The notes under the pieces were generated by a model. It was not told the origin of the DNA and made no database searches. It worked only from the letters and a program-made list of their open reading frames with translations. Made by a program: the position numbers and the translations under genes. This document shows positions 12,150 to 63,800 of a stretch of DNA of 64,000 nt, one piece after another (position 1 is the first letter of the stretch; every line of letters starts with the position of its first letter). Origin of the DNA: Lytechinus pictus (Eukaryota); assembly GCF_037042905.1 (NCBI RefSeq), contig NC_087250.1, forward strand, positions 20,028,001 to 20,092,000, written 5' to 3'.

Positions 12150-14460
12150 GTTCAGTTCAGTTCAGTTCAATTTATTTATTTTCTCAGCATAAAAAAAGAT
12201 GATATATATACAATATGTACAAGAATGACAAATAGTATCAGAGAAAATTGGAAACTACAGAAAAGTTTATAAAAACTTGTGAGTAGTAGTTCCCAGTCCA
12301 TTGAATGAAAATGCACACACAGCATCAACAAACACCAGCAAACACACAGGGAGGGTGGGGCGGTAAATGTACGAGATTTCAGCAAGGAGAAAGGAAACAA
12401 ATTATATTGCATATTCATTTATATACATTCTTTTTAACTTAGATTTAAATGACGTAATTGTTGAGTATTTAATTTCATCGGGGAGATTATTCCAAATGCG
12501 TGGGCCATAATGCCTTAATGAATTTAGGAGAATTTGTGTTTTAACCTTGGGATAATGAAAATTATTACTTGAGCGAGTGTTGTGACAATGAACGGAATTG
12601 TTTATTAAAAACATACGGGATATATTAAAAGGAATTATGTTATGAATAGTACGAAACATCACAGATGCTATCTGAAATTTATGAATATCATATATATTAA
12701 GGGTATTGAGATTAAAAAACAAAGGTCGTGAGGGAGCTCTAAAAGGGGAGTTGGTACATATTCTTAAAATTTTCTTTTGCAATTTATGAAGGGGTTCCAA
12801 TTTTGTTATTCCAGCATTCGCCCAAATAATATTACAATATTGAAGATAGGATAGGGAAAGACAGTTATAAATCATAAATAACTCCTTCTGTGGCAAAAAA
12901 TTGCGAAGTTTAGAAAGAATACCAATATTTTTTTTAGATTTTGTTAGCTAAAATAGAACGGTGGCTGTTGTATGACAGTGTATCATCTAAAGTGATTCCG
13001 AGAAACTTGGTTGTTTTTTTAACAATTCAAGACGATTTGATTCAAAAATATTTTAACATCCGAAATATCATGTTTTATATGTTCTTTACTAATATACATA
13101 ACAGTTGTCTTTTCATAATTGAATACTAATTCATTAGCATGGAACCAGTTTATAATCTTAATTAATTCTTCATTTGTATTCTTAATAAGTAAATTAAAAT
13201 CACAATTGGACGCAACTAAATTTGTATCATCGGCAAAAAGGACAAAATGAAAAAAATGAGAAACATTACATAAATCATTGATATATATCAAGAATAAGAG
13301 CAGGCCCAGTGTGGAGCCCTGGGGGACTCCACAATGGACCCTCTCATGATGAGAAACAGCATTATTATAAACAGTATAATGAAAACGATCAGTTAAATAA
13401 TCTTTAAACCATTCAAGGGCAATGCCACGAATACCAAAATGAAATAGTTTACTAAGTAAAATATTGTGGTTGATAACATCAAAGGCTTTGCTTAAATCGA
13501 GAAAAATACCGAGTGTATGTAGATTATTAGCCATATTATTTAGGAGATGATCATTAAGGTCGATTAGTGCAAGCTCGCATGAGTAATTTGATCTAAAACC
13601 GTATTGTGAATTATTTAATAGATTATTTTTATCAATGTGCCGTATAAGCCTATTGTACATTAACTTTTCTAAGATTTTGGAAATACTAGGGAGTAAAGTG
13701 AAAGGTCTATAATTTGAAAATATATGCAAGTCCCCTTTTTTAAATACTGGAATAATTTTCCCTATTTTCATGTCCTTTGGGAATCTACCTGTTAAAAATG
13801 ATACATTAAAGATATGTGTTAGGGGTTTTGTTATGAAATGAATTACTTTTTTAATAACACACTGACTAATTCCATCAAATCCCATGCTTTTACTTGATTT
13901 AAAATGTTTTACTATTTCAATAATTTCATGTTCATTTGTAGGAAATAAGAATATAGAATTTTGACATTGGTTTGAGAGATAAGACAAAAAATTATTAGAA
14001 CGCTGGGGAATATTTGATTTGATATTGGTAGCTATATTAGCAAAAAATGTATTAAATTCTTCTACGATAATTTGATCATCAGTTATTTTAACACCATCTT
14101 TCAGGAAATAAGTGTTTAATTTATGTTTATTTGTAAAAAGAACCTCATTAATTATTTTCCACAACTTAGAAAGATTATTTTTATGTTTTTGCAACAAGTT
14201 ACTATAATATTGTTTTTTTGCCTTTTTTAGAACTAGGTTCAATTTATTTCGGTAAGATTTAAACTTCCTTTCAATTGTTTGATTTCTACTTTTGCAAAAA
14301 CGTTTATATAAATTGTCTTTTCAAAGACGAATTGGAAATAAACCGTATAGATACCATGTAATTTCCACCGGTTAAACCATAGAGCTATTAATAGCTCCAT
14401 GGTTAAACTATACATTCCAAAGATTTGAATAAAAAGGGCAACACGTACCAATATTTTGTA
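12150..14460 (-). mobile_element. CR1/L2-group LINE, 5'-truncated, antisense in DNAJC5 intron 3
   Basis: RT motifs NYRP, FLDLSKAFD, GVPQGS, LFADD in ORF 13019-14242; C-terminal part in 12402-12896; AATAAA plus (GAACT)n tail. Confidence 0.92.
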
Positions 14461-24043: not shown

Positions 24044-25203
24044 ACATATATATATTTATATACATAACATCACACTTTGCGTTCGCATTATTTATTTAGG
24101 CCCTGTGAGATACCTTCATTGTGTTTTTGAGAATAAATTTAAGATTTTCTGTAACTTTCGTCTGTAGACCGTAACAATTATCTTGGTGCCCCCTACCAAA
24201 GTTTAAGCCGCCCCCCCCCGTGCGCCCCTGCTGAATAAATCCCAGCTACTCAACTGATGAGGAGATTAAGTCGTTTGCCTCCGAGATTGCACTATTTCCA
24301 ATAGGTTATCAATAACATTATTGAAGAAAATTCTAAAACGATTCGTATGAAATGACAGCTCCCGCTCACACAATTCTAGTAAGCCGGGCCCCTCTATGAA
24401 ACCACCAATTGATTAAAACAGAAAATTAATGGATTTTTTTTTCATGAACACATATCATTAAAAAGAATCGGCATGCGTGTTACTCATGGCATAATCTAAG
24501 TTACTATAAGATCAACTTTCACGAGAAATCTCGTTACTAATTAATTATTGTTTCTTTTATTATTTTCTGTTTTTCAGTTTCACACAATCTCACCAGTTGT
24601 AATCGATTACCTGTACTGAACCAATTCATTAGAGCATGGATCTATGCTTATAGTTCAATTTCTATATTATATTTGTTTAATTTTCACAACTCATTAGCTA
24701 AAATTTAAGCATTTTATTTATATTACACATAATGATATATATTTTTAACATATTATATTATAATATAACAATGTAAATAAAAATTAATAACAATAAAAGC
24801 TATGCGATATTTACTAGCATAATTATTTATATAAGAGTATATATAATTTTAATATTCATACATCGATCATACTACGAAATTTAGCAAATTAACATTGGTA
24901 TTTTGGTAGTGGACTGCGTACGGTATGCATTCACTAATGTTAATACACTACTCAAAAAAACTTAAGGACCACTTTTTAAAACGTACATAAAGATTTTATA
25001 CAAGGTGTTTTATTTCTGGAAATACCTCAGTACAACTGTCCTAAATGTCCTTAAACACGCTGTAATCAATTTCACGCATGGGTGGTTTCAGTTGTTGCAC
25101 AATGTCTCTCGCATCACTGCACATCCTGAAAAGTGGGCCCCGAGGGGTATCAGCTACCGACATGAAGTGGTAAAAACGAATGTCTGAGTGTCTTTCAGGC
25201 AGT

Positions 25204-26232
25204 TCAGTAACGAGTGTGACCACCTCCTGCAGCAATAACGGCTTCACAGCGCTGTCTCATGGAGCTGATGAGGCGATTGATGTCTCTGACGTCCAGTGCA
25301 TCCCATGCAGCCTCCAGAGCCACACCCAGCTGCTGCAGTCCAAGTGGATGGGCTTCGAGCTGCTCGAGACTCCTCCCCATCATGTCCCAGACGTGCTCTA
25401 TCGGGTTTAAGTCCGGGGACCTCGCTGGCCACTTCATACGCTCAATCCCCTGGCCCTCAAGGAACTCGGTCACCACCCTAGCTCGGTGGGCACGGGCATT
25501 GTCATCCATGAAAATGATGTTTTGTCCCACATTTTCTGCAAATGGCACCACTATAGGTTCAAGGACCTCATCCCTGTACCTCACTCCTGTCATTGCTCCC
25601 CCTGGGACCACGTAGAGACGAGTACGGTTGGCGTAGGTGATGCCTCCCCACACCATGACGCTGCCTCCCCCATAACGGTCATGTTCTGCAATACAGGGGT
25701 CTGCAAATCTCTCTCCTGGTCGCCTCCAGACTCTCGAACGTCCATCATTGTGGTCAAGGGAAAATCTGCTCTCATCTGTGAACAGAACTCTACGCCATTG
25801 CTGTCTGGTCCATCTGACATGCTCCCGGGCCCAGTTGAGACGAATTCTTCTGTGAGCAGGGGTGAGTGGGACACACTGAGCTGGCCGTCTGGCATGCATA
25901 TTGGCTCTGTGAAGTCGGTTACGGATTGTTTGAGTGGAAACAATCACTCCAGTTGCTGCAGCGAAGTCATTGTTGAGGCGGCGTGCACTGTGAAAGCGGT
26001 TGCGGAGGCTGAGATTCGTCAAGTAGCGATCATCTCTAGGGGTTGTCGAAACTGGTCGGCCACTGCGGGGTCTCTCGGAGTATAGCCCTGTCTCTCGGTG
26101 TCTTTGATTTGCTCTGCTAATGACACTGTGTGACACGCCCATCATTCTGGCTACTCTTCGCTGACTGAGGCCAGCTTCCAGCATCCCTAGGGCTCTGGCT
26201 ACATCTGTTTCACTTAGGTGGTGTCTTGGCAT
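25204..26232 (-). CDS. Tc1-family transposase, left copy (342 aa from MPRHH)
   Basis: Paired-like HTH N-terminus with GRP; FTDE, DDNARAH and WPARSPDLNPIE motifs; 34 residues between second D and E. Confidence 0.93.
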   Translation of the reverse strand: MPRHHLSETDVARALGMLEAGLSQRRVARMMGVSHSVISRANQRHRETGLYSERPRSGRPVSTTPRDDRYLTNLSLRNRFHSARRLNNDFAAATGVIVSTQTIRNRLHRANMHARRPAQCVPLTPAHRRIRLNWAREHVRWTRQQWRRVLFTDESRFSLDHNDGRSRVWRRPGERFADPCIAEHDRYGGGSVMVWGGITYANRTRLYVVPGGAMTGVRYRDEVLEPIVVPFAENVGQNIIFMDDNARAHRARVVTEFLEGQGIERMKWPARSPDLNPIEHVWDMMGRSLEQLEAHPLGLQQLGVALEAAWDALDVRDINRLISSMRQRCEAVIAAGGGHTRY

Positions 26233-26563
26233 TGCTGTTGTAGGCAAGTTGTTGATTGTACAGACTAAAGACGGAAAATGCTTTGGAAGACACTTGTCTT
26301 ATGGCCCACTGCAATGATGCCAGAGACATCATGAAAGAACTGCATGTGTGAAATTGATGTCATTGTGTTTGATGGCATTCTGGACAGCTGTATCTTGGCA
26401 TTGCTATTGTCAGCAAGTTGTTGATTGTAGAGACTAAAGACAGAAAATGCTTTGGAAGCCACTTTTGTACGGGCACATTGCAATGATGCAAGAGACATGA
26501 AAGAACTGCACGTGTGAAATTGATTTCATTGTGTTTGATGGCATCCTGGACAGCTGGATAGCA

Positions 26564-27592
26564 ATGCCAAGACACCACCTAAGTGAAACAGATGTAGCCA
26601 GAGCCCTAGGGATGCTGGAAGCTGGCCTCAGTCAGCGAAGAGTAGCCATAATGATGGGCGTGTCACACAGTGTCATTAGCAGAGCAAATCAAAGACACCG
26701 AGAGACAGGGCTATACTCCGAGAGACCCCGCAGTGGCCGACCAGTTTCGACAACCCCTAGAGATGATCGCTACTTGACGAATCTCAGCCTCCGCAACCGC
26801 TTTCACAGTGCACGCCGCCTCAACAATGACTTCGCTGCAGCAACTGGAGTGATTGTTTCCACTCAAACAATCCGTAACCGACTTCACAGAGCCAATATGC
26901 ATGCCAGACGGCCAGCTCAGTGTGTCCCACTCACCCCTGCTCACAGAAGAATTCGTCTCAACTGGGCCCGGGAGCATGTCAGATGGACCAGACAGCAATG
27001 GCGTAGAGTTCTGTTCACAGATGAGAGCAGATTTTCCCTTGACCACAATGATGGACGTTCGAGAGTCTGGAGGCGACCAGGAGAGAGATTTGCAGACCCC
27101 TGTATTGCAGAACATGACCGTTATGGGGGAGGCAGCGTCATGGTGTGGGGAGGCATCACCTACGCCAACCGTACTCGTCTCTACGTGGTCCCAGGGGGAG
27201 CAATGACAGGAGTGAGGTACAGGGATGAGGTCCTTGAACCTATAGTGGTGCCATTTGCAGAAAATGTGGGACAAAACATCATTTTCATGGATGACAATGC
27301 CCGTGCCCACCGAGCTAGGGTGGTGACCGAGTTCCTTGAGGGCCAGGGGATTGAGCGTATGGAGTGGCCAGCGAGGTCCCCGGACTTAAACCCGATAGAG
27401 CACGTCTGGGACATGATGGGGAGGAGTCTCGAGCAGCTCGAAGCCCATCCACTTGGACTGCAGCAGCTGGGTGTGGCTCTGGAGGCTGCATGGGATGCAC
27501 TGGACGTCAGAGACATCAATCGCCTCATCAGCTCCATGAGACAGCGCTGTGAAGCCGTTATTGCTGCAGGAGGTGGTCACACTCGTTACTGA
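26564..27592 (+). CDS. Tc1-family transposase, right copy (342 aa)
   Basis: Same protein as the left copy except RRVARMM/RRVAIMM and RMKWP/RMEWP; uninterrupted ORF. Confidence 0.93.
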   Translation: MPRHHLSETDVARALGMLEAGLSQRRVAIMMGVSHSVISRANQRHRETGLYSERPRSGRPVSTTPRDDRYLTNLSLRNRFHSARRLNNDFAAATGVIVSTQTIRNRLHRANMHARRPAQCVPLTPAHRRIRLNWAREHVRWTRQQWRRVLFTDESRFSLDHNDGRSRVWRRPGERFADPCIAEHDRYGGGSVMVWGGITYANRTRLYVVPGGAMTGVRYRDEVLEPIVVPFAENVGQNIIFMDDNARAHRARVVTEFLEGQGIERMEWPARSPDLNPIEHVWDMMGRSLEQLEAHPLGLQQLGVALEAAWDALDVRDINRLISSMRQRCEAVIAAGGGHTRY

Positions 27593-28389
27593 ACTGCCTG
27601 AAAGACACTCAGACATTCGTTTTTACCACTTCATGTCGGTAGCTGATACCCCTCGGGGCCCACTTTTCAGGATGTGCAGTGATGCGAGAGACATTGTGCA
27701 ACAACTGAAACCACCCATGCGTGAAATTGATTACAGCGTGTTTAAGGACATTTAGGACAGTTGTACTGAGGTATTTCCAGAAATAAAACACCTTGTATAA
27801 AATCTTTATGTACGTTTTAAAAAGTGGTCCTTAACTTTTTTTGAGTAGTGTATGTTAGGATCGACAGGCATACCGTAAAGAAGTCGTTAAGTAGGACAGT
27901 TAATTCGTTGTAAGATGACTCCTCAAATGTCTGTTTAGATGTATGATGAAATATGTGACAGAAAATTCTGGAGTAAGTTGTGTAACTGCTGAGATAAAAA
28001 GCCAAACAAGCATGACATTCTTTCCACAGAACAATCATTTTCTTCGCCAAATTTTGCCTGAACGTGCAACACACGACATGCACGAAGGGGTTTCAGAAAC
28101 ACCATGTGTTACTTGCTTCGTTTTGCCAAAGTTGAGCAAAATAGTCAAAATTATGAAAAATGTTATGGTCACTAGAATAGTTATTTGTTAAAAAGTATTC
28201 TAATACTAGTACCTACTTGTATGTTTAAGATTATATATTAATTTACTAAATAATTTGGCAGTGAATCTCGTACGTTATGAGATCACTAAATTAAAGAAAA
28301 TGAAAGCTTTGGAATGATCAAGATAATTTGTGCAAAATCAAAAAATCAAAGAAACCGATCTATAATTGAGTTAATAATGAGAAAGTTGA

Positions 28390-28984
28390 AGGTCAAGTCC
28401 ACCACAGGAAAATGTTGATTGGAATAAATAGAGAAAAATCCAACAAGCATAACGCTGAAAATTTCATCAAAATCGGATGTAAAACAAGAAAGTTTTGACA
28501 TTTCAAAGTTTCGCCTATTTTTCAAAAAACAGTGATATGCACAACCAAGTGACACGCAAACATGGCAAATGAGACAGTCGATGATGTCCCTCACTCACTA
28601 TTTCTTTTGTTTTTTACTATTTGAATTATACAATATTTCATTTTTTACAAATTTGACAATATGGACCAACTTGACTGAACCATATAGTATTAAACAATGC
28701 TAATTCCATATGTTCAGGGAGGAATTATTGCTGTTTCACTTGACAATGAGGACAAAATGAGAATGTTTCATATTTCATATAATAAAATACAAAAGAAATA
28801 GTGAGTGGATGACATCATCAGTCTCCTCATTTGCATACCGACCAGGATGTACATATAACTGTTTTGTGAAATTAAGCGAAACTTTAAAATGTCATAACTT
28901 TCTTATTTTACATCCGATTTTGATGAAATTTTCAGTGTTATGTTTGTTGGATAAATAAACTTTTTGTTGGGGTGGACTTGTCCT
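28390..28984. mobile_element. TTAA-target (Kolobok-like) MITE, uninterrupted copy
   Basis: AGGTCAAGTCCACC...GGTGGACTTGTCCT|TTAA; long imperfect inverted arms. Confidence 0.85.
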
Positions 28985-31802: not shown

Positions 31803-33274
31803 TAGGATAGGTAAACATACTAATAAGAAATCGTCAAGTCGGACAGTTAACTTTATCAATTGACTATCCAAATGTCTGTCTGAATGATGAAATAACAGAA
31901 GATTCTGGATAAAATTGTGTAACTGATAAGATAAAAAGACAAACAAGAATGACATTTCACAAACTTGTCGGGACCTTTCCACTCCAATGATAATACACTG
32001 TTCCACGTAGGATTTATTTTTCAATTTACATTATACTAATACATTTATGTAATATTGACTGGTATTGAGGGGAATATCAAATATGTCGCCCGCAACAGAA
32101 GTCCTTAGACGAGGGCAATATGGTTCTTTTAAGGGCAACATATTTCCCGGAAGAAGACCCAGTCAATATTATTATTATCACCTAAGGCTGTACAATGTGT
32201 AATTCAAGCAATTATAAATTTTGGAACAATTTAAATGCATGTTTGCTAATCACTACCGGGATCACTACTTCTGATTTTAGGTTATTCACGAACTTAGCGA
32301 AGTACCCTTAATATTTGTGACGTATTTACCTTGCAGTCGCGCACGCGCACATGCACTGAACACGTAGAAATCATGCAATTGGGTTTGTTATGCCGGGACG
32401 TGCATTATCTACAATGTGTTGATTCATAAACTGGTTCCAGCCAGTTTTCTCAAACACTGAAATTAGCGATCAAAATCGAATCCTACTGCGCAATGCATTA
32501 GCAAAAATATGGCCAATATTGCCTTCTGTTTTGTACAGGATTTCTATAGGCAAAGCCCGAGGAGGGCAACATGGCAAATGTTTACCTCGTTGGTTTCGGA
32601 TTCAAAGTAGCGAGCGAAATATGGCTTTTATTTATCTCCTAAAATGCCTTGTATCGGTATAAAAACCGTTCTTTGGCCTCAGTAATAAATGCATCGATAA
32701 CCTGTGTTGACTCAATCGATTATAGTTTAATTCCATTATTATGAAAAAAATCTCACGACAACTCGTCATCTAAAGTTTTGGGTTTTTATATCACATGTTA
32801 AAAAAAAAATAAAAAAATTGATTTAAAAGAAAGCAAACGTTCTATTTAAGAAGAAAAAATAGTCACTAGCATAATTATTTTTAAAGATTATTATGAATAA
32901 TGACATTGGATCATACTATGAAACTACCTAACTATATACTGTTATTATTATTTTGGCAGTGAACTGCATACGTTATAAGTTCACTAATAGGAAGATAGTC
33001 AGGTATATTTTGAAAAGGTTGTCAAGACAGGATAGTTAACATTATAAGATGTCTCTCCAAATGTCTGTTTGTATAAATGATGAAATATGTGACAGAAGAA
33101 TCTGGAGAAAATTGTGTAACTGCTGACATAAAAAGCCAGGCAAGCATGACATTTCACAAACTAGGCGGGACATTTTTACTCCTATAATAATACACTGTTC
33201 CATGTGGGATCTTTTTTCACCTTATAATTCATAATCACACAAAGTTCGGTTTATGCACTTGTGCCAGATTTAAA

Positions 33275-33850
33275 TCTATGGTGACACCACATCTGATTTG
33301 TTGAAAACAAGACTGTTCATTGTTAATTGTTACCATTTGCTTCCGATTTGAAAGATAGCTTTCAAAAAGTTTTAGTGTTATTCCCCTTATCCCATATAAA
33401 TTCAGTTTATTTAACAATATGCGATGATCTAAAGTATCAAAAGCCTTTGATAAATCCAAAAATAACCCAATCATTATCTCTCCATTATCTATTGAATTTA
33501 CAACCTTATGGATAAGATTAACCAGTGCAGAAGAAGTAGAATGACCTGCTCTAAAACCATATTGGTTATTGCTGATAGTATTGCACATAGATATGAAATT
33601 ATATAAACGATAAATACACCTCTCAAGTATTTTGGAAAATATTGTTAAAACAGATATTGGACGATAATTAGTCATGAATTCAGGTGTACCATTTTTAGAA
33701 ACAGGGGTAACTCTCGCTAATTTCATTTGATCAGGAAAAATTCCCAGTTGAAAACACTGATTGAATATTGCACATAATGGGTTAACAATTAAATGTATTA
33801 CACGCTTCACAACTTTAACATTAATTCCATCAAAACCGGCACTTGTCTAC
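33275..33850 (-). mobile_element. CR1/L2-group LINE RT fragment
   Basis: NYRPIS...QYGFR...FLDLSKAFD. Confidence 0.85.
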
Positions 33851-41216: not shown

Positions 41217-43876
41217 AATTTACCACTAACAGAAAATCAAATTATAAAAAGGTTCCACTCCACCCTTGGATTACTAAATCACTTTTGAGATCAATCAACC
41301 GAAAGAACAACCTTTACTATAAATACATAACTAAACAAAGTAACGAATCTCGCTTTAAATATACTTCATACAAAAACACACTCACTACTTTATTACGCAT
41401 TGCAAAAAGAGAATATTATACCTCCCAACTTAATTTGTTCAAAAACGATATGAGGAACACATGGAAAATCATTAATGGAGCATTAAATGAAAACAAAAAA
41501 AGTACTTCTATAACAAAAATAAAAGTAAACAATACAACTACCGACGACAACATCTCAATAGCACAAGAATTTAATTCATATTTTTCAAACATTGGCAACA
41601 ATCTGGCAAGCAAAGTCCCTAAAACTCATAAATCTTTCAACAGTTTTCTTGACAACCAAAATCCAAACTCTATATTTTTTAATCCTACGAACACAAGATA
41701 AATTATTAATATTGTTAATAATCTACAGACCAAGAAGAGCACAGGTTTCGATGGTATTCCTAACTTCCTACTTAAGAAAATTATTTTAACTATCGTCGAT
41801 CCTCTGGTCCACATATTTAATGTTTCTATGAACACAGGGAAGGTACCTAACCTAATGAAAATAGCCAAAGTCATCCCCCTTTACAAAAAAAGGTGATAAT
41901 CAACTTGTTTCTAATTACCGTCCTATTTCATTGCTCACTTCGTTATCTAAAATTCTCGAAAAACTTATACATACTCGTACAATTACGTTCTTTAATAAAT
42001 TCAATACTTTTTCGAACTCGCAATTTGGTTTCCGCGAAAATCATAGCACCTCGCATGCAATTTTGACTTTTATTAATAAAATTACTTCTTCCATAGATAT
42101 AGGTTGTCATACTGTTGGTATTTTCCTGGACTTCTCGAAGGCCTTCGATACCATTAACCACGATATACTTCTTCATAAACTTTCTTTTTATGGTATCAGG
42201 GGGAAGGCCTTGGAGTGGTTCAAGAGCTACCTAACAGACAGGTCTCAATTTGTGTCAGTCAACAACGTTGTTTCTTCTACTCTTCCTATTACATGTGGAG
42301 TACCACAGGGTAGTTTACTTGGTCCTCTTTTTTTTATTACATATATTAATGACATTAAAAAAAGTTCAAATTTACTAACATTTGTATTGTTTGCTTACGA
42401 TTCGAACATTTTCTTTTCTCATGATAACGTAAACCAACTTGTAAGAATTGTAAACTCAGAACTTATACATGTCACTGACTGGATTAAGGCGAATAAACTA
42501 TCACTTAACTTACAAAAGACGAATTTTATGCTTTTTAGTAACAGAATAAATACAATACCTGATAACATAATTTTTGATAATACTGTTCTTGAAAATGTTT
42601 CAGATACAAGATTTTTGGGGGTTACTATCGATAATAAGCTATCATGGAAACCACACATCAATAATACATGCAAAACAATTTCAAGAAACATCGGAATTAT
42701 CAACAAACTCAAATATTTTTTCCCATCTCACACTTTACTTACACTGTATCATACGTTAATATTACCATACATTAATTATGGCATTTTGGCATGGGGTTGT
42801 GCGATCCAAACACAATTACAAAGAATACTGTTGCTGCAGAAGAAGGCTCTTAGAATAATTTTTCAAACCCAATTCAGATCACACACAGATATACTATTCT
42901 TCCAAAATAATATTCTTAAAGTGAGTGATTTATATCTTTTCCAACTCGCCCAATTTATGTATAAACTAAACAAAGATGATCTCCCAACAATTTTTTCAAA
43001 TATGTTCTGTAAAAAACTCCTCTATACACGATTACCCAACGAGACAACGTAATTGTTATCACCTACCCCCTACCCGTACTATATTAGCGAAAAACTATTT
43101 TATCTTTTTTGGACCTGCGTATTGGAATTCCCTGCCCAACGACTTTAAAGAATCTACAAACCTTAATATTTTTAAACGCAAACTTAAAAAGATGCTCATT
43201 TGTCAATACTCCACACCAACAAGTCAAGCTAACACATAACCTAAACTAAAACTACATAATAACCTTTAACTGCCAATAAATTTGTCAAACTTTACTTAAA
43301 AAAACAACAACAACACTACAACATGATACAATACATTACGACCTGTGCACCTGCCATGTTCCTCTTTTCATTTGCACTTTTTATTTGCACCTCCCTTATC
43401 TCCCTCTTTCTTTCCTTTGCCACTTTTCCCTCCCTATTATGATTTTGTAAGTACTTTTTTTTGTGTTACCACTGTAATTATTATTATTTGAATTACTTTC
43501 TCTTATTTTTGTTGTCGCTTATTCGTTTTATTTTGATATTTGTGGATTACTTGTTTTAAGTTTGTCTTCTGTGTCCGTCTCGATTTTTGTATAGAGTTGT
43601 ATATATAGTTTGTTTATAATTAGTATTGAAACTAAGTTTAGGGGCTTGCCTTCTCTACAAGCTTTTGCTTTTCTTGGCAAGTCCCTCCGTTCATTTCTTG
43701 TTTCTTTTCATTGATAATATTACTGCAACAAATTGTAGTTTTGTTTAATTTATATTCAACATCTGTTACAAAATTTCATTGATTTGTCTGTATTATCGAT
43801 TATATTGAATATGTATTGTTACTTTGATTATATTTTGAAAAAAATGTTGAACGGAAATAAAATCTAAATCTAAATC
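41217..43876 (+). mobile_element. CR1/L2-group LINE, 5'-truncated and frameshifted
   Basis: PWIT, FLDFSKAFD, GVPQGS, LFAYD (catalytic D lost); AATAAA plus (AATCTA)n tail; candidate TSD TATGCC at 41211 and 43877. Confidence 0.9.
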
Positions 43877-44239: not shown

Positions 44240-47200
44240 TGTAGTAGTTTTCTTTTCATCAAACACTGATTTCAACATGATCAGAGCTTGATCACTACTT
44301 TGTTTACAATGATCATGCAAAGACAGCTGATTTACAACTTAATTAATTCTTTTGATGGAGCACTCCTCAGTTAGCCTATTCAACTTGATTCTTTTGTGCA
44401 CCTACTGGCCCAGTCATCCTTTATTCAAGATGTTCACACAACAGCCAGGAATTCTTTCATGTTCTTTCGTCTTCTACTTCTAGTTCAGAGTTGTCACAAC
44501 TTAGACAGCAAGTAGACAGACTTACATTTCAAGTGCAATCATTGACTACGCAACTTCAACATGAACGTGGTCGATCTCCAAATAGGCGCCCTCATCGTCC
44601 AAATAGACAACGTAGCAGGAGTAGCAGTCAAAAGCGTCCTCTCTGTTGGTATCACTGGAAGCATGGTGCAGGAGCTCGCAAGTGTACACCGCCATGTAAC
44701 TTTAATCACGCTTCTTTGTTTTCGAGTGATTCTCAACAGCCTTCTTCCAACACTCATGCTCAGGGAAACGACAGAGCCAGCCGGGATTGAGAGCGACGAC
44801 CCGTGCTGGTGCTAAGAATAAGAATGGTCGCTTGTTCTACATTCATGATCGGATCAGTGGTACTCAATTTTTAGTAGATACTGGAGCTGAAGTCAGCATA
44901 ATCACGCCATTTGCAGTTGACAGACAACGGCATACACATTCAGAGTTCACATTGGAAGCGGTTAACGAGTCTCGCATTCCTACGTATGGTGAACGCTCCA
45001 TCACTTTGGACTTGGGCCTTCGAAGGACTTTTCGTTTTGTTTTTGTGATTGCCGATCTTCCTACACCCATTATTGGAGCCGATTTCTTGAATGAATTGGA
45101 CTGGTTGTAGATGTTAAGCATCGAAAACTTCTTGACTCCACTACAAAGCTCACGATCTACGGCATCCGTGCTCCACTTCAGACGCAGTCTGTCAGTCCTA
45201 TGTTTTCACGTTCATCGACTACAGGCAGTGATGAGTATAACGCCATCTTAAAGGAGTACCCAGACATCACTCGTCCTGACTATCGCCCCAAAGCTGTCAA
45301 ACATTCTGTTACGCACCACATTGTAAAGACAGGACCTCCATGTTCCGCACGTCCACGTCGTTTAGCTGCTGATCGCCTGACAATAGCACGTTCTGAGTTC
45401 GAACATATGCAGGAACTGGGGATCGTTAGACTGTCGAGCAGCAATTGGGCATCCCCGCTCCACATGGCTCCCAAATCTACACCAGGTGATTGGCGCCCAT
45501 GTGGGGATTACCGTGCTCTTAACGCTCGAACTGTACCAGATCGCTACCCAGTCCCACATATCCAGGACTTTACAGCATCATTGAATGGCAAGAAGATCTT
45601 TTCGAAGATAGATCTCGTCAAGGCATACCATCAGATACCCGTTGAACCATCTGATATACCGAAGACGGCAATTACCACACCCTTCGGACTCTTCGAGTTT
45701 ACGCGAATGCCTTTCGGACTTCGAAATGCAGCCCAATCCTTCCAGCGTTTGATGGACGAAGTGGTCAGGGGCTTGCCTTTTGTCTTTGTGTACATCGACG
45801 ACATGCTAGTTGCTAGTGCAACAGAGGAAGAGCATAAAGAACATCTCCGACTTCTTTTTGCTCGCCTTCACGAGTATGGTATTGTGATCAACCCTGCCAA
45901 GTGTGTGTTTGGTGTGAGCTCTCTCATCTTCTTGGGACATCACATCAGCGCAGATGGCATTCGACCCCTCGAGAAGCGCGTAGAGGAGATCCGCGAATTT
46001 GCTCGTCCTTCTTCTATTCGACAGCTCCGTCGTTTTCTAGGACTTGTCAATTTTATCGACGATTTATCCCCAAGGCAGCAGCTATCCTCTCACCACTTAC
46101 CGACATGCTCCGTGGTCAGCCGAAGAGATCAACCAAGGCAGTTGAGTGGACGGAAGAGCGCATCAGTGCATTCGAGCGTGCGAAGGAGGAACTCGCAAAT
46201 GCTGCTTTGCTTGTACATCCTTCGATAGATCTCCAAACTAACTTGATGGTTGATGCATCAGATGTAGCAGTCGGTGGCGTCCTTCAACAGTACGCTGATG
46301 GTATTTGGAAGCCAATTGCGTTCTTTTCACAGCGACTCAAACCTACCGAAACTAGATACAGCACTTTTGGTAGGGAATTATTAGCTGTTTACCTCACGAT
46401 TCGCCATTTTCGCCATTTCTTAGAGGGACGCGAGTTCACAGTCTACACGGATCATAAGCCGTTGACCTACGCTTTGCGATCGAAGCCTGACCGTCACTCT
46501 CCAAGAGAAATCCGCCAGCTGGACTATATCTCGCAGTTTACATCAGACATTCAGCATGTACACGGTGTAGACAACACAGTAGCTGATGCCTTGTCTCGAC
46601 TGCATGTGGATGCTCTTCACACATCATTTACTGTTGATTTTGATCAGATTGCAGCCGACCAAATTGATGATGAATGGGAAGAGATACAGAAATCAACTTC
46701 ACTGACATTTAAGCAAGTACCACGGCCTTCAAGCGACGGAATGATTTTGTGCGATGTCTCTACAGACCACGAGAGACCTTACGTCCCGAAGAAACACCGC
46801 CGCATGGTATTTGAAGCGTTGCATAATATGTCACATCCTGGTGTACGCTCTACCCAAACAATGATTACTTCACGTTTTGTTTGGCCAAGTATGAACAAGG
46901 ACATACGTACATGGGCTCGTTCATGCCTATCTTGCCAGCGCTCTAAGATCCACCGACATATCAAGGCACCACTTGGAACCTACACTGCGCCAGACGCCAG
47001 ATTCAGTCATATTCATGTAGACTTAGTCGGTCCATTGCCTTTGTCAAATGGATATTGTTACATGTTAACCTGTATTGATCGGTTTACAAGATGGGCCGAT
47101 GCTTTCCCAATATCAGACATTACAGCAGAGACTGTCGCCAAGACACTTGTGCATGAGTGGATTTCCCGATTTGGCGCACCCTCGACCATCACCACGGACA

Positions 47201-48336
47201 GTGGTAGGCAGTTTGAATCGCAACTCTTCCAAGCACTCACTTCACTTCTTGGGAGCTCTCGTACACGCACCACTGCGTATCACCCTGCGGCCAATGGTAT
47301 TGTGGAAAGATTCCATCGTCAGCTCAAAGCAGCACTTCGAGCGCAATCTGATCACAGCAAATGGCAAGAGTTTTTGCCGATCGCACTTTTGGGCATACGC
47401 ACAACGGTAAAAGAGGATCTTGGATGTACACCAGCAGAACTGGTGTATGGAACTACACTGAAGGTTCCAGGTCAGCTGGTGGCACCAACAACTCCAGACT
47501 CTTTCTCCAACCCAGGCGACTATGTTCATCGCCTTCGCAACTATATGATTGACATCAACCCTGCACGAACACGTTCTCAAACTACTACATCGCATGTTCC
47601 ACCTGATTTGCAAGATTGCTCGCATGTATTTATCAGGTGTGATGCTGTCCGGCCGTCACTTCAACCGCAATATGATGGACCTTACAGAGTTGTTAGTAGG
47701 ACGCCAAAGTTTTTTTATTTTGGATGTGAAAGGGAAGAATGATTCCGTCAGCGTTGATCGTCTCAAGGTTGCTCATCTGCCATCTACTACAAGCATGGAC
47801 AATTCATTTCTACATCATGCATCATTTTCATCGCTACCTACTCCTACTACCTCTACTCCACCGGTGCGGACAACCAGATCAGGTCGCCGCGTCCATTTTC
47901 CAGCTCGTTTTGCCCAGTTTTCCAATGGATGAAAGGACATCTTACATTATCATGGGACCAATGCTTTGTATCGATCAACTTAACTCTTGTTCGTTGATCT
48001 AGGAGGGGAGTACTGTAGTGGTTTTCTTTTCATCAAACACTGATTTCAACATGATCAGAGCTTGATCACTACTTTGTTTACATTGATCATGCAAAGACAG
48101 CTGATTTACAACTTAATTAATTCTTTTGATGGAGCACTTCTCAGTTAGCCTATTCAACTCGATTCTTTTGTGCACCTACTGGCCCAGTCATCCTTTATTC
48201 AAGATGTTCACACAACAGCCAGGAATTCTTTCATGTTCATTTTCTAAGCCATGGAATGCTCCTGTCTATTTCTAAGTGGATGTTTTTCTCACTTAGCAAC
48301 TACTAGCCAGTCAGATTTAAGCTGAGAGCAACCTCA
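44240..48336 (+). mobile_element. Gypsy/Ty3 LTR retrotransposon (CsRn1-like), internally deleted and frameshifted
   Basis: Repeats 44240-44464 and 48014-48238 start TGTAG and differ at ~4 sites. PPT AGGAGGGGAG at 48001. Gag end CWYHWKHGAGARKCTPPC, protease FLVDTGAE, RT YIDD, RNase H DASD, integrase. 3' LTR end at 48336 is inferred from CA plus flanks GGGTT/TGGTT. Confidence 0.92.
44787..47932 (+). pseudogene. Gypsy pol (PR-RT-RH-IN) broken by frameshifts
   Basis: Domains are split over ORFs 44787-45110, 45200-46228, 45901-47742 and 47549-47932. Confidence 0.9.
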
Positions 48337-60879: not shown

Positions 60880-63800
60880 TGTAGTGATATGAATAACAGG
60901 TGCAGGCATAACTCTTGGGCATACATGTAGAGCCTGAAGTGAATTGTATTGTATGCCTGTATTGCATGCCTGCACCAGGCAAGGTGCTTATGAATAGAAA
61001 CATTCTTGGTTTGGTTTATATGAGGCGTGTCCTGAACAGGACCATTGATACATGTATGTATTGAGAGAGTAGACAACATGTACCATGCTAAGTAACCTGG
61101 CAGTTGACTCTTCATGCTCTTGTACATGTAGTTGTATGTGAACTCGGTTCTTATAAAGTCTGAAGACTATATTGGAGTTAAAAGCTGAATAAAGTGAATA
61201 CCAAGATAACTTTCTGATCTGTATCGTTATTTTGTTCCCCGTCTATTTCAACTGGTAGTACGGATGGGGTACTAGAAACTGGATAAAAACTCCTTGTTTT
61301 CAGACAATGTTTCTTCAGTACAATGGCATTGGTGTTCTGTCTCCATGATTGCAACAAATATGTGAATATACAAGAAACTGCTACTGTGTCCATACAACTC
61401 GGATAACTAGTGAGGATAGAATGCTTTTATGGAAGGCATATAGTGACTATTTATCGCTCCTGCATGCACTGCGTTACTAAAGAGTCATGACAACATGTCA
61501 GATGGTGCTGTAGCTGAAGTGGAGAAGCCTCCAGGCTAGTCAAGTGGTACAGTCACATCTATCCTCTGTGTCTGCAATATTAACTATCTAAGGTGGAACT
61601 GGAAGTTGCAGTTACGGAATACCGGTGATGTTTACTACTTCTTTTTGAGACTGAGAGTAAATTCTTCGTTCTGTGAAAAGCATTTGCTGACTGAGGAGCC
61701 CAGCAGAATTTGTTTGAGCTGTCCTAGCTGTTTCGTCATCTAGAGAGTAGCCTTTATATTTTGGAAAGCGTGGATATTTAGGGAAGATAAAAATGGTATT
61801 TGACCCCATTGAACGAGGTTCAACACTGCGTGAGTAAATCTAGACCTAGAAGTACTGTTTTGAGTTTGCAATTTTGTGTTACATTGAAGCTTTAATCATC
61901 TTTCTGATGCAGAATAAATGGAGGAGACTCTACTATAGAATGGCATGATTGATTTTTGTTACAAGTCACATCAATTTGGAAGTGAGTGTACATGAATCTG
62001 AAGAACAAGAAGATTATTTTGAGAAATGACAACTGCATCATTTCCAGAAGACTTTGAAACAATATGCAATATGACATTTTGAGTGGTGACTAGTCTGTTC
62101 AAAAATTTTAGTTTTGAATATTGTAATCCAGTGATCAAGATGGCTGAAAGTTCTAATGAGTTAGTTGACAAATTGATAACAGGTATTACTAATGCCTTAA
62201 ATGTGCAAGGAGGTAGAGTGACACATCTGCGTGCCCCCGAATTACCACGATTTTCAGGTAAAACTTCTGTGGGAGATTTAACATTATCGCAATGGTTGGA
62301 AGAAGTGGATATTTTTTGTGATCAATGTGAGATTCCCATAACACAGAAAGCCCAAGTTATTTTGAATCATTTAGATGGGGCTGCACGCCAGGAAATCAGA
62401 TGTCACTCTGTCTCTTCAGATGATCTAGATACTTTGCTTTCTTTGTTAACACGTAATTTTGGATCTAAAGATACTACTCAAACCCTCAAGAAGAGATTTC
62501 ATGAAAGAGTTCAGAAGGAGGGGGAGTCTTTGGATGAGTTTTCAAGGGCTTTAATGTGCATGTATGATGCTATCATAGATGTAGCACCAGATAGGGAAAA
62601 AGAGGCACACAAAGGCCTTAGGGATTCTGCCCTTATTGACAAGTTTGTAGCTGGTGCACGTAGCAATAGCATACGCCTAGAGTTACGGCGTATCCGATTG
62701 GCTAATCCTGATAAAACATTTTTAGAGATCAGAGATTATGCCTCAGATTTGTTGGAAAGCTTTGACACAAAGGTAGAGGGTACGTCCAATAAACGTGGAT
62801 TGGTATATGAGGTGTCAGTTGATGATTGTCCTGAAGGGATAGCTAGTACAAGTAACATGCACACGGATAGTAGTTTGATTCATCATACGGTACAACAACA
62901 AGCTGCATTAGAAAAATGTGTATTGCAGCAGCAAACTATTATGGAGCGTCAGCAAGAACAATTATCAGAGTTATTGGCTAGGAAGACCCAAGCAGCTCCA
63001 AAGTATACAAGACAGAAACGTAATCGAAGTTGTTTCTACTGTGGTAGACCTGGTCATATCCAGGCACAGTGTTGGGAGTTACAAAAACAATCACAGAATA
63101 GGAATTATGAGTATCAGAATTCAGGTGATTTAAATGCCAAACCCCCTCTCTAGCACGGGACCGAAATGTTGAGGGGGAAACTCAGTCGGTCCCTGTAGGT
63201 GATGTCCATGTTCCTAGCACTCAACTGACACCTGATGAGATATTAGATAAGTTAGTTCAACAGAGCCCCAAAGCAGTTGTTGATTTGGCTGGTGTTTAAG
63301 TTCAGTGTACATTAGATACTGTGGCAGAAACTTCTCTGATTAGTTCATCATTTTATCATGAGCATTTGGCTGACAAATTAAGTAATACAAAACTAGGGAA
63401 AGTATGTGTACAAGTTGTAGGTGCAAATCACCTACAAATCCCAATTGAAGGATATGTGGAAATTCCTCTTTCTGTAAATGACCATACATTAGGTGCCCAC
63501 TTCTTAATTGTTGATGACTCTGCGCATGGGAAGGCTATTATTGACAGTAAACAAAGTCATGTGTTACTAGGATGTAATGTATTGTATGATTTGAAAGACC
63601 ATGTAAATGATTTGAATGGGTCAGATGCTGAGGCTTGGAATATTGTAATGAAGTGGTTAGATCTTACTAAGCCTGTTGATTCAAATGACAAGAGACAAAG
63701 AGAATGTAAACCAAGTCGTGTTGTAAATGGTAGACCTGGTAGAAAACCTGTAGTCATACATTCTAGACAAGTGCAGACTGTAGTGTGTCAATTGAGAACC

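What the first reader, a model, noticed from the sequence alone, without database searches (positions are those of the whole stretch)
24946..27850. Tc1 transposon built as a 2.9-kb palindrome with two intact, divergent transposase genes
Seen: one pair of TA-flanked termini encloses two 1291-bp inverted arms. Each arm runs from the transposase ATG through the stop to the element end, so the whole transposase gene lies inside the terminal inverted repeat. Both 342-aa DD34E ORFs are open. I found 3 arm differences (two amino-acid changes, one TIR base). The two flanks join up into one host repeat whose unbroken sister is at ~32960-33160, so the palindrome inserted or formed as a single unit. Known: ordinary Tc1 elements carry one ORF between two ends. 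Inference: two 3' ends make a mobilisable unit, and read-through transcription would give a 1.3-kb dsRNA hairpin, so the element could be both autonomous and a source of its own silencing RNA.
Basis: partly seen in the sequence, partly recalled or inferred. Interest (0 to 1): 0.85.

Follow-up and report, generated by a model that had tools for sequence, protein, structure and literature searches.

The report
Mobile head-to-head Tc1 transposon dimer
This is a real Tc1-type jumping gene built as two inverted copies joined head to head, and this doubled form has copied itself to many places in the genome, which shows how transposons with very long inverted ends can arise.

Summary
Window 24946-27850 is a 2905-bp, TA-flanked element: two 1291-bp inverted arms (3 mismatches), a 323-bp spacer and two open 342-aa DD34E transposase ORFs. 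It is neither an artefact nor a one-off. The junction that only the palindrome has occurs 27 times in the 811-Mb genome. Eighteen copies are full length. All have TA on both sides and unrelated flanks. Nine aligned copies differ only by private changes, so the unit transposed in a recent burst.

The parent is a 1896-bp single-ORF element with 195-bp TIRs and a tripled 169-bp 5' unit. The palindrome is the commonest of many "two-3'-end" dimers. 3'-end tags outnumber 5'-end tags 425 to 135. The 38 such dimers sampled fall into 23 junction classes, and three other classes have 16, 12 and 6 copies. No 5'-5' dimer was seen. Junctions show microhomology or short filler, which points to end-joining or template switching.

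One fungal Tc1/mariner element with this architecture is in print. I call this a new variant of a known kind.

The parts
24944..24945 (.). left TA target-site duplication
   Evidence: TA directly abuts CACTAC in all 9 aligned copies
24946..27850 (.). complete 2905-bp head-to-head (two-3'-end) Tc1-like element
24946..26236 (-). left arm, equal to canonical positions 606-1896 in reverse (ATG to 3' end), 1291 bp
24946..25140 (-). 3' terminal inverted repeat (195 bp as defined on the canonical element), left copy
   Evidence: 5' and 3' TIRs align over 195 bp at 84% identity, first 34 bp identical
25204..26232 (-). transposase ORF 1 (342 aa, DD34E). It keeps its native 5'UTR units upstream and carries one private change (K where the other arm has E)
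26237..26559 (-). 323-bp spacer: two tandem ~169-bp units of the canonical 5' region (inner-TIR-like sequence plus 5'UTR), in the orientation of ORF 1
   Evidence: canonical positions 286-605
26557..26560 (.). palindrome-specific junction: canonical position 286 joined to position 606 in inverted orientation, with 3 nt (GAT) that match neither parent exactly
   Evidence: the 32-mer across it occurs 27 times in the genome
26560..27850 (+). right arm, equal to canonical positions 606-1896, 1291 bp
26564..27592 (+). transposase ORF 2 (342 aa here). It has no native 5'UTR. Most other copies have an in-frame ATG 18 codons upstream, giving 360 aa; this copy lost it through the private change at 26511. 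It also carries one private change (I29 where the other arm has R)
27656..27850 (+). 3' terminal inverted repeat, right copy
27851..27852 (.). right TA target-site duplication
32788..33153 (+). uninterrupted sister copy of the host repeat that the element split (an empty-site paralogue)

Best explanation
Shown: the element is a real, recently mobile inverted dimer of a Tc1-like (DD34E) transposon. Its parent is a 1896-bp single-ORF element with 195-bp TIRs and a tripled 169-bp 5' unit. The dimer keeps canonical positions 286-1896 in one orientation, joined at a blunt or 3-nt-filler junction to positions 606-1896 in the other. Both termini are therefore 3' ends and both arms hold a whole ORF. 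This unit was cut and pasted as one piece into at least 27 TA sites in a recent burst. It is the most successful of at least 23 independently formed dimers of the same design. Inferred, about 0.55: the dimers arise when two 5'-damaged copies, probably the two sister chromatids, are joined by microhomology-mediated end-joining or template switching. In some cases the damage is a cut at the 5' tip, presumably made by the transposase. The transposase then mobilises the product using the two outward-facing 3' ends. Inferred, about 0.4: only 3'/3' products persist because a pair of 3' ends is a competent, possibly better, substrate than 5'/3' or 5'/5'. The engineered Mos1 element with two 3' ITRs behaves this way. 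Speculative, about 0.3: copies transcribed from outside fold into a 1.3-kb hairpin and feed RNA silencing of the family. The confidence given (0.85) is for the part marked as shown.
For: Structure and ORFs.

Copy number: the junction 32-mer has 27 hits against 0 for the reversed control. All 27 loci were fetched. 18 are full length (2901-2909 bp) and 9 are further deleted or rearranged. 12 of the 18 carry two ORFs of 342 aa or more.

Transposition as a unit: TA sits on both sides of every full-length copy. Left and right flanks are not inverted copies of each other, and no two loci share flanks, in 47 of 47 elements. An empty-site paralogue lies in the window. All 44 variable sites among the 9 aligned copies are singletons, and the column majority has identical arms.

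Parent element.

Family-wide asymmetry: the 3'-TIR 35-mer has 425 hits and the 5'-TIR 35-mer 135. 76 of the first 100 listed 3' ends form 38 outward-facing 3'/3' pairs. All 38 were fetched, and they fall into 23 junction classes. The 32 tabulated are all TA/TA; the other six are full-length 2905-bp copies, TA-flanked. No 5'/5' pair was seen by eye among the first 100 listed 5' ends.

Other classes amplified too: 12, 6 and 16 copies.

Joining chemistry: mean microhomology is 2.1 nt against 0.68 expected. 10 of 22 classes have 3 nt or more, against 5.5% expected (binomial p about 9e-8). 5 of the 22 are scored as 1-7 nt of filler, though one of those (L015) reads as a 2-nt microhomology beside a polymorphism. 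The 23rd class, L023, has 5 nt of filler by eye.

5'-tip breaks: three classes break at canonical positions 3, 7 and 19.

Age: all forms are equally young, at 0.20-0.39% from the family majority, with no diagnostic differences between forms.

Precedent for end asymmetry: a Mos1 element framed by two 3' ITRs is about 20 times more efficient than the natural 5'/3' element (PMC3419177, passages read).
Against: No read-level confirmation was possible. Only assembled contigs of 4 public runs could be laid. None bridged 26559/26560 and none covered this copy's flanks.

The census is partial, because only the first 100 places of each end-tag search are listed.

Nothing in the sequence shows that the 5' TIR is a weaker end. 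The first 34 bp are identical to the 3' TIR and the inner ~70 bp are well conserved. The advantage of two 3' ends therefore rests only on the skew in abundance and on the Mos1 analogy.

With 3' ends now three times commoner, a neutral template-choice bias could account for part of the skew.

Intact single-ORF copies are common (14 of 18), so the palindrome may be moved in trans.

The breakpoint cluster at canonical 549-716 (17 of 46 breakpoints, about 4 expected) was noticed after the fact and is unexplained.
Confidence: 0.85

Rival explanations
1. Assembly artefact: fold-back chimeric long reads or a mis-join created a palindrome that does not exist in the animal.
For: Palindromes are a known failure mode of long-read libraries (general knowledge). 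No raw reads could be examined, and contigs of 4 runs did not bridge the centre.
Against: 27 loci on 12 contigs (chromosome-sized pieces) carry the same junction. The palindromy ends exactly at the transposon tips, with TA on both sides and unrelated left and right flanks. The arms carry copy-private substitutions and enclose a 323-bp asymmetric spacer. Fold-back chimeras would give symmetric structures that run on into the flank.
Confidence: 0.01
2. A local one-off rearrangement (nested insertion plus deletion, or a local inversion-duplication) that is not itself mobile.
For: Three other dimer classes keep an almost complete internal 5' TIR, which resembles nested copies (L023, L035, L036).
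Against: The identical junction is present at 27 places with independent TA sites. Variation among 9 aligned copies is star-like. Neither side of the junction is a transposon tip next to a TA target.
Confidence: 0.01
3. Same structure and mobility, but a different origin and no advantage for the ends. Dimers form in place during gap repair after excision. The strand primed from the 5' flank copies the 34 bp shared by both TIRs, re-invades one of the many 3' TIRs, and the two like-sense nascent strands are then joined by microhomology. The excess of 3'/3' over 5'/5' is a self-reinforcing bias in template abundance, not better transposition.
For: Both TIRs share an identical 34-bp tip. Junctions show microhomology and templated-looking filler, such as the 7 nt in L024. 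Single-copy classes sit at ordinary TA/TA sites, as an in-place product would. 3' ends outnumber 5' ends 425 to 135. A break at canonical position 3 also fits run-off copying of a template cut 2 nt inside its 5' end; that cut position is recalled from Tc1/Tc3 biochemistry, not from a call.
Against: At the start of the invasion both ends were equally common, so 5'/5' products should exist. I saw none among the first 100 listed 5' ends, against 23 3'/3' classes on three contigs. Four dimer lineages reached 6-27 copies, so they are efficiently mobilised whatever their origin.
Confidence: 0.3
4. The palindromic copies act mainly as silencers. Read-through transcripts fold into a 1.3-kb hairpin, are diced, and shut the family down. 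This is the first reader's inference, analogous to maize Mu killer and Ac/Ds composite insertions.
For: The arms are 99.8% complementary over 1291 nt, so any transcript crossing the whole element must fold back. Mu killer is a partial inverted duplication of a transposase gene proposed to give a hairpin RNA by read-through (PMC3440606, abstract seen in the listing). Inverted Ac duplications made by aberrant transposition give dsRNA and siRNAs and silence Ac (bioRxiv 10.1101/2020.01.07.897926, abstract read).
Against: No RNA evidence: contigs cannot show strand, and none crossed the centre. Outward transcription of the two genes gives identical sense RNAs, not a hairpin. The family kept amplifying after dimers appeared: four dimer lineages total 61 copies, and all forms are about 0.2-0.4% diverged. 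Silencing was therefore not immediate.
Confidence: 0.3

Closest known systems
Canonical Tc1-family (DD34E) transposons, such as Sleeping Beauty and the elements labelled Tcb1/Tcb2
   Same: TA target duplication. HTH plus DDE_3 transposase with D-90-D-34-E spacing. The nearest solved structure is the SB100X catalytic domain (E 2.7e-28). Relatives carrying source names are 39-52% identical and unnamed ones reach 59%. The family's own 1896-bp form has one ORF between two TIRs.
   Different: Here the 5' TIR and one 5' unit are replaced by an inverted copy of ORF plus 3' TIR. This gives two ORFs and 1291-bp terminal inverted arms, and this form is itself multi-copy.
FUN-MUPI-2, a Tc1/mariner-superfamily element of Mucor piriformis (PMC13469147, passages read)
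   Same: Described as a 6758-bp element with two 1627-bp inverted-repeat regions at its ends, each holding an identical transposase gene. TA duplication and DD34E.
   Different: It is reported as a single unusual element, in a fungus and in the Dici family. The passages I read give no copy census, parent form, junction analysis or sign of recurrent formation. I did not see that paper's supplements.
Engineered Mos1 pseudo-element framed by two 3' ITRs ('3T3')
   Same: Both termini are the 3' end of the natural element. In Mos1 that arrangement is about 20 times more efficient than the natural 5'/3' one, because the 3' ITR is the single high-affinity site (PMC3419177, passages read).
   Different: It is a laboratory construct of the mariner family with 28-bp ITRs. 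Here the arrangement arose naturally and repeatedly, and it carries whole genes. Differential binding of the two ends has not been tested.
Maize Mu killer, Ac/Ds composite insertions and 'double Ds'
   Same: Inverted duplications of transposon sequence made by aberrant transposition or repair, with hairpin-RNA potential (PMC3440606 abstract; bioRxiv 10.1101/2020.01.07.897926 abstract). The double-Ds structure is recalled from memory, not from a call.
   Different: They belong to other superfamilies (Mutator, hAT). They are single loci that silence the family or break chromosomes, and are not reported as amplifying units. Here the dimers are bounded by functional ends and have multiplied.

Membership tests
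Tc1 family (DD34E) of the IS630-Tc1-mariner superfamily | TA target-site duplication | tested here: met
   TA on both sides of this copy and of every other full-length or two-3'-end copy examined
Tc1 family (DD34E) of the IS630-Tc1-mariner superfamily | DDE catalytic domain with 34 residues between the second D and the E | tested here: met
   Pfam DDE_3 at 3.1e-19. D153, D244 and E279 located by motif. SB100X catalytic domain at E 2.7e-28. The residues were assigned by motif position, not by a structure alignment.
Tc1 family (DD34E) of the IS630-Tc1-mariner superfamily | N-terminal paired-like helix-turn-helix DNA-binding region | tested here: met
   HTH_Tnp_Tc3_2 at 8.2e-19 is above its cut-off. 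HTH_38, HTH_23 and HTH_32 are weak and below their cut-offs.
Tc1 family (DD34E) of the IS630-Tc1-mariner superfamily | one transposase gene between a 5' and a 3' terminal inverted repeat | tested here: not met
   This element has two genes and two 3' ends. The family's 1896-bp form does meet the feature. The element is therefore a derived architecture within the family, not a different family.
Foldback-type / long-TIR transposons | very long terminal inverted repeats built of non-coding subrepeats, usually with little or no coding capacity | tested here: not met
   The arms are long (1291 bp) but each is an intact copy of ORF plus 3' TIR. Tandem units occur only in the spacer.
Hairpin-RNA silencer loci of transposons (Mu killer type) | inverted duplication of transposase-coding sequence | tested here: met
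   1291-nt arms with 3 mismatches
Hairpin-RNA silencer loci of transposons (Mu killer type) | transcription through both arms, small RNAs derived from them, and silencing of the family | not testable with these tools
   Only assembled contigs could be laid, and none crossed the centre.
Transposons with two identical high-affinity ends (Mos1 3'/3' type) | both termini are copies of the same natural end | tested here: met
   Both termini are the 3' TIR, with 1 mismatch in 195 bp in this copy.
Transposons with two identical high-affinity ends (Mos1 3'/3' type) | that end binds transposase better, and the symmetric element transposes better than the natural one | not testable with these tools
   The only support is the abundance skew: 425 against 135 end tags, and no 5'/5' pair seen.

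The most novel reading that the evidence does not exclude
In this genome a Tc1-like family spreads mainly as self-made inverted dimers. Transposase cutting at the 5' end, followed by joining of two broken copies, keeps generating units with two 3' ends. These are preferentially mobilised because the 3' end is the stronger end. That would make them a natural counterpart of the engineered hyperactive 3'/3' mariner, and a live view of how long-TIR or foldback-like transposons are born. Each copy is also a latent 1.3-kb hairpin gene that could eventually switch the family off.
Probability: 0.3. Interest if true: 0.78.

Novelty: new variant of a known kind. Interest (0 to 1): 0.64.

Why it matters
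Textbook Tc1/mariner elements have one gene between two short or medium TIRs. How elements with kilobase-long inverted ends arise is mostly inferred from old, decayed copies.

Here the parent, at least 23 independently formed dimers and four amplified dimer lineages coexist at about 99.6-99.8% identity. Formation junctions, end usage and relative success can therefore be read directly from the sequence.

This makes two questions testable in a natural system. The first is whether the two ends of a Tc1-like element are functionally unequal, as in Mos1. The second is whether inverted duplications made by the transposon itself start RNA silencing in an animal, as shown for Ac/Ds and Mutator in maize.

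There is also a practical point. A family that is more than half palindromic is a hazard for assembly and for repeat annotation.

Tried and rejected
1. Public runs. The best holders had at most 0.64 of the sampled words. Only Logan contigs were available. In the 4 runs laid (X1, X4, X13, X15) no contig bridged 26559/26560, and none covered the flanks of this copy apart from one 33-nt piece. The contigs showed the extra 166-bp unit of the single-ORF form and the branch into the 5'-TIR sequence. This neither confirms nor denies the palindrome in other samples, and it does not show transcription.

2. JGI metagenome contigs: 0 exact matches to the junction 32-mer and 0 to the 3'-TIR 35-mer.

3. 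Earlier notes of this scan: nothing for this genome or this protein.

4. Literature. Six answered searches found no description of amplified two-3'-end Tc1 dimers. The only architectural precedent found was FUN-MUPI-2. Matching is by words only and subscription journals are missing, so this is not proof that nothing is in print.

5. Nested insertion as the origin of the main junction was rejected. Neither side is a transposon tip at a TA.

6. A canonical variant that would make the main junction perfectly blunt was looked for and not found. All 17 canonical copies that carry this site read CAGCTGTAT, not CAGCTGGAT. Up to 3 nt are therefore untemplated or mutated.

7. Diagnostic substitutions separating palindromic from canonical copies: none.

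8. A 5'-TIR defect visible in the sequence: none obvious.
Full report
**1. Observation**

The repeat finder reports inverted arms 24943-26236 and 26560-27853 with 323 nt between them. The outermost three bases on each side are the TA target site plus one chance match. The element proper is therefore 24946-27850 (2905 bp), with ends TA|CACTAC...GTAGTG|TA and arms of 1291 bp.

- The arms differ at exactly three positions: 24961/27835, 25434/27362 and 26147/26649.
- Two 342-aa ORFs lie head to head, at 25204-26232 (-) and 26564-27592 (+), and differ at two residues.
- The protein matches Pfam DDE_3 and HTH_Tnp_Tc3_2 above their cut-offs.
- D153, D244 and E279 give DD34E spacing.
- The nearest solved structure is the Sleeping Beauty SB100X catalytic domain.
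- GC is 51% inside the element against 35-37% outside.
- The two flanks, joined, align without a break across the insertion point to a sister repeat at 32788-33153.

**2. Not an artefact and not a one-off**

The window lies in an 811-Mb assembly. A 32-mer spanning the junction that only the palindrome possesses (26559/26560) occurs 27 times, against 0 for the reversed control. I fetched all 27 loci.

- 18 are full length (2901-2909 bp). 9 are further deleted or rearranged derivatives.
- Every full-length copy has TA on both sides.
- In 47 of 47 two-3'-end elements tested, the left and right flanks are not inverted copies of each other (best local score 20 over 250 bp). No two loci share flanks. 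The palindromy therefore stops at the transposon tips, and the loci are independent insertions.
- Among nine gap-free copies, all 44 variable sites are singletons, and the column majority has identical arms.

This is the signature of a recent burst of transposition of the whole palindrome. No raw reads could be inspected, so read-level proof is still missing.

**3. The parent and the anatomy**

The same search found loci that match only up to the junction. These are the single-ORF form: 1896 bp, TA-flanked, with 195-bp TIRs that are 84% identical to each other and identical over the first 34 bp.

Its 5' part holds three tandem ~169-bp units. Each unit runs from inner-TIR-like sequence to a copy of the ATG context.

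In canonical coordinates the palindrome is reverse(286-1896) joined to 606-1896. The 323-bp spacer is therefore two of the three 5' units, and it is native upstream sequence for the minus-strand gene only. The plus-strand gene is fused four bases before its ATG to inverted foreign sequence. Most copies have an in-frame ATG 18 codons upstream there, giving 360 aa. This copy lost it through its private change at 26511.

At the junction, 3 nt (GAT) match neither parent exactly. All 17 canonical copies that carry this site read CAGCTGTAT there.

**4. One of many two-3'-end dimers**

- A 35-mer specific to the 3' TIR has 425 hits. The matching 5'-TIR 35-mer has 135. By arithmetic this implies roughly 145 elements with two 3' ends.
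- 76 of the first 100 listed 3' ends form 38 outward-facing pairs 1.3-3.0 kb apart. I fetched all 38.
- Each has the form reverse(x-1896) + (y-1896), and they fall into 23 junction classes.
- The 32 tabulated are all TA/TA. The remaining six are full-length 2905-bp copies, TA-flanked.
- Three further classes are multi-copy by junction 32-mer: 12, 6 and 16 copies. With the 27, that makes 61 copies in four lineages.
- Reading the first 100 listed 5' ends by eye, I found no 5'/5' pair.
- All forms are equally young. Per-site difference from the family majority is 0.39% for canonical copies, 0.20% for the palindrome and 0.28% for other dimers. There are no diagnostic differences between forms.
- 14 of 18 sampled canonical copies have an intact ORF. 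12 of 18 full-length palindromes have two.

**5. How the dimers form (inference)**

Across 22 classes, junction microhomology averages 2.1 nt against 0.68 for simulated random joins. Ten classes have 3 nt or more, against 5.5% expected (p about 9e-8). Five are scored as 1-7 nt of filler, though one of these (L015) reads as a 2-nt microhomology beside a polymorphism. The 23rd class, L023, failed the automatic anchor and shows 5 nt of filler by eye. This fits microhomology-mediated end-joining or template switching.

Three classes break at canonical positions 3, 7 and 19. That is at, or just inside, the 5' tip. Position 3 is where a Tc1/Tc3-type cut of the non-transferred strand would fall; this is recalled biochemistry, not a call. 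It points to transposase cleavage of the 5' end in at least some events.

Seventeen of 46 breakpoints lie in canonical 549-716, around the ATG, where about 4 are expected. I noticed this after the fact and cannot explain it.

My preferred model (about 0.55) has three steps. Two 5'-damaged copies, most simply the two sister chromatids, are joined head to head. The product is rescued by excision at its two outward 3' ends. It then reinserts elsewhere.

The main rival (about 0.3) is in-place gap repair, in which the strand primed at the 5' flank switches to a 3' TIR after copying the shared 34-bp tip.

**6. Why only 3'/3' (inference)**

I saw no 5'/5' dimers. That argues either for polar formation or for a requirement, or preference, for 3' ends in mobilisation. 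In Mos1, an element framed by two 3' ITRs is about 20 times more efficient than the natural element, because the 3' ITR is the single high-affinity site (PMC3419177, passages).

Nothing in the present TIR sequences shows that the 5' end is weaker. This therefore remains an analogy supported only by abundance (about 0.4).

**7. The hairpin idea**

Any transcript crossing the whole element must fold into a 1291-bp stem. Outward transcription of the two genes gives identical sense RNAs, so a hairpin needs transcription entering from outside the element.

Maize offers precedents. Mu killer is one (PMC3440606, abstract). Ac/Ds composite insertions that produce dsRNA and siRNAs are another (bioRxiv 10.1101/2020.01.07.897926, abstract).

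I could not test it here. The four dimer lineages went on to reach 61 copies, which shows that any silencing was not immediate.

**8. Comparison with what is known**

The element is a member of the Tc1 (DD34E) family on every feature tested except the one-gene, two-different-ends layout, which its own parent form does meet.

Its closest relatives carrying a source name are 39-52% identical and are labelled Tc1-like, Tcb1 or Tcb2 transposases; unnamed ones reach 59%. Near-identical proteins (99%) occur only on short public contigs.

One element with the same architecture is in print: FUN-MUPI-2 of Mucor piriformis, 6758 bp with two 1627-bp inverted regions, each holding an identical transposase gene. 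It is mentioned as a single oddity (PMC13469147, passages; supplements not seen).

Six word searches found no account of amplified or recurrent two-3'-end Tc1 dimers. I therefore rate it a new variant of a known kind.

**9. Surroundings**

The neighbourhood is rich in repeats.

- Reverse-transcriptase fragments at 13022-14320, 33238-33846 and 41865-43049.
- A Ty3/gypsy-like RT-RNaseH-integrase stretch at 45095-47739.
- A PNMA/gag-like ORF at 62083-63150.

I saw no host gene that would obviously transcribe through this copy, but I did not model exons.

**10. Verdict**

- Autonomy and self-silencing are open.
- Interest 0.64.

Noticed in passing
locus L013 1211-3106 (canonical element); in the window, the spacer 26221-26559: The canonical 5' region carries three tandem ~169-bp units. 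Each ends in a copy of the start-codon context (AGCAATGCCAAGA), so the mRNA leader would hold repeated upstream ATGs with short ORFs. Some canonical copies lack one or more units (5'-tag to 3'-tag spacing of 1612, 1641 or 1472 instead of 1807).
   Followed up: partly
window 26510-26563, and the same place in L002-L009 and L061-L065: In most palindromic copies the inverted spacer supplies an in-frame ATG 18 codons upstream of the second ORF, giving 360 aa. The window copy has ACG there (a private change at 26511) and starts at the normal ATG.
   Followed up: partly
L024 2523-3101 and L036 2727-3305: Two different dimer classes both carry an insertion of about 580 bp at the same point of the right-hand 3' TIR (between canonical ~1794 and 1787). 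This may be another small mobile element, or a shared ancestry of that arm.
   Followed up: no
G000 C10:17441853, 17455224 and 17460547; C7:21212291 and 21213989: Hits of the (213,642) junction cluster within about 19 kb on C10 and within 1.7 kb in opposite orientation on C7. This suggests local hops, local duplication or a higher-order rearrangement.
   Followed up: no
window 28438-28952: Nested inverted repeats: 91-nt arms at 89% (28438-28528 / 28862-28952) and 73-nt arms at 78% (28565-28637 / 28762-28834). They lie just right of the element and look like a small foldback or MITE-like repeat.
   Followed up: no
window 13022-14320, 33238-33846, 41865-43049, 45095-47739 and 62083-63150: Retroelement remains surround the finding: three reverse-transcriptase ORF fragments, a Ty3/gypsy-like RT-RNaseH-integrase stretch and a PNMA/gag-like ORF (Pfam).
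   Followed up: partly
window 24946-27850 against public runs X1-X20: Near-identical words of the element are held by runs labelled with at least five coded organisms, and by marine and echinoderm-labelled metagenome or transcriptome runs. The family may be shared among related marine animals or be spreading between them. Contigs of an oligo-dT RNA library cover parts of the ORF at 99% identity or more, which does not prove transcription.
   Followed up: partly
L010 (G000 C6:20126686-20130184), about 74 kb from the window copy on the same contig: A rearranged relative of the palindrome with extra inverted segments (arms of 971 and 884 bp). It carries the same junction 32-mer, so it is a second-order rearrangement of a dimer.
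   Followed up: no
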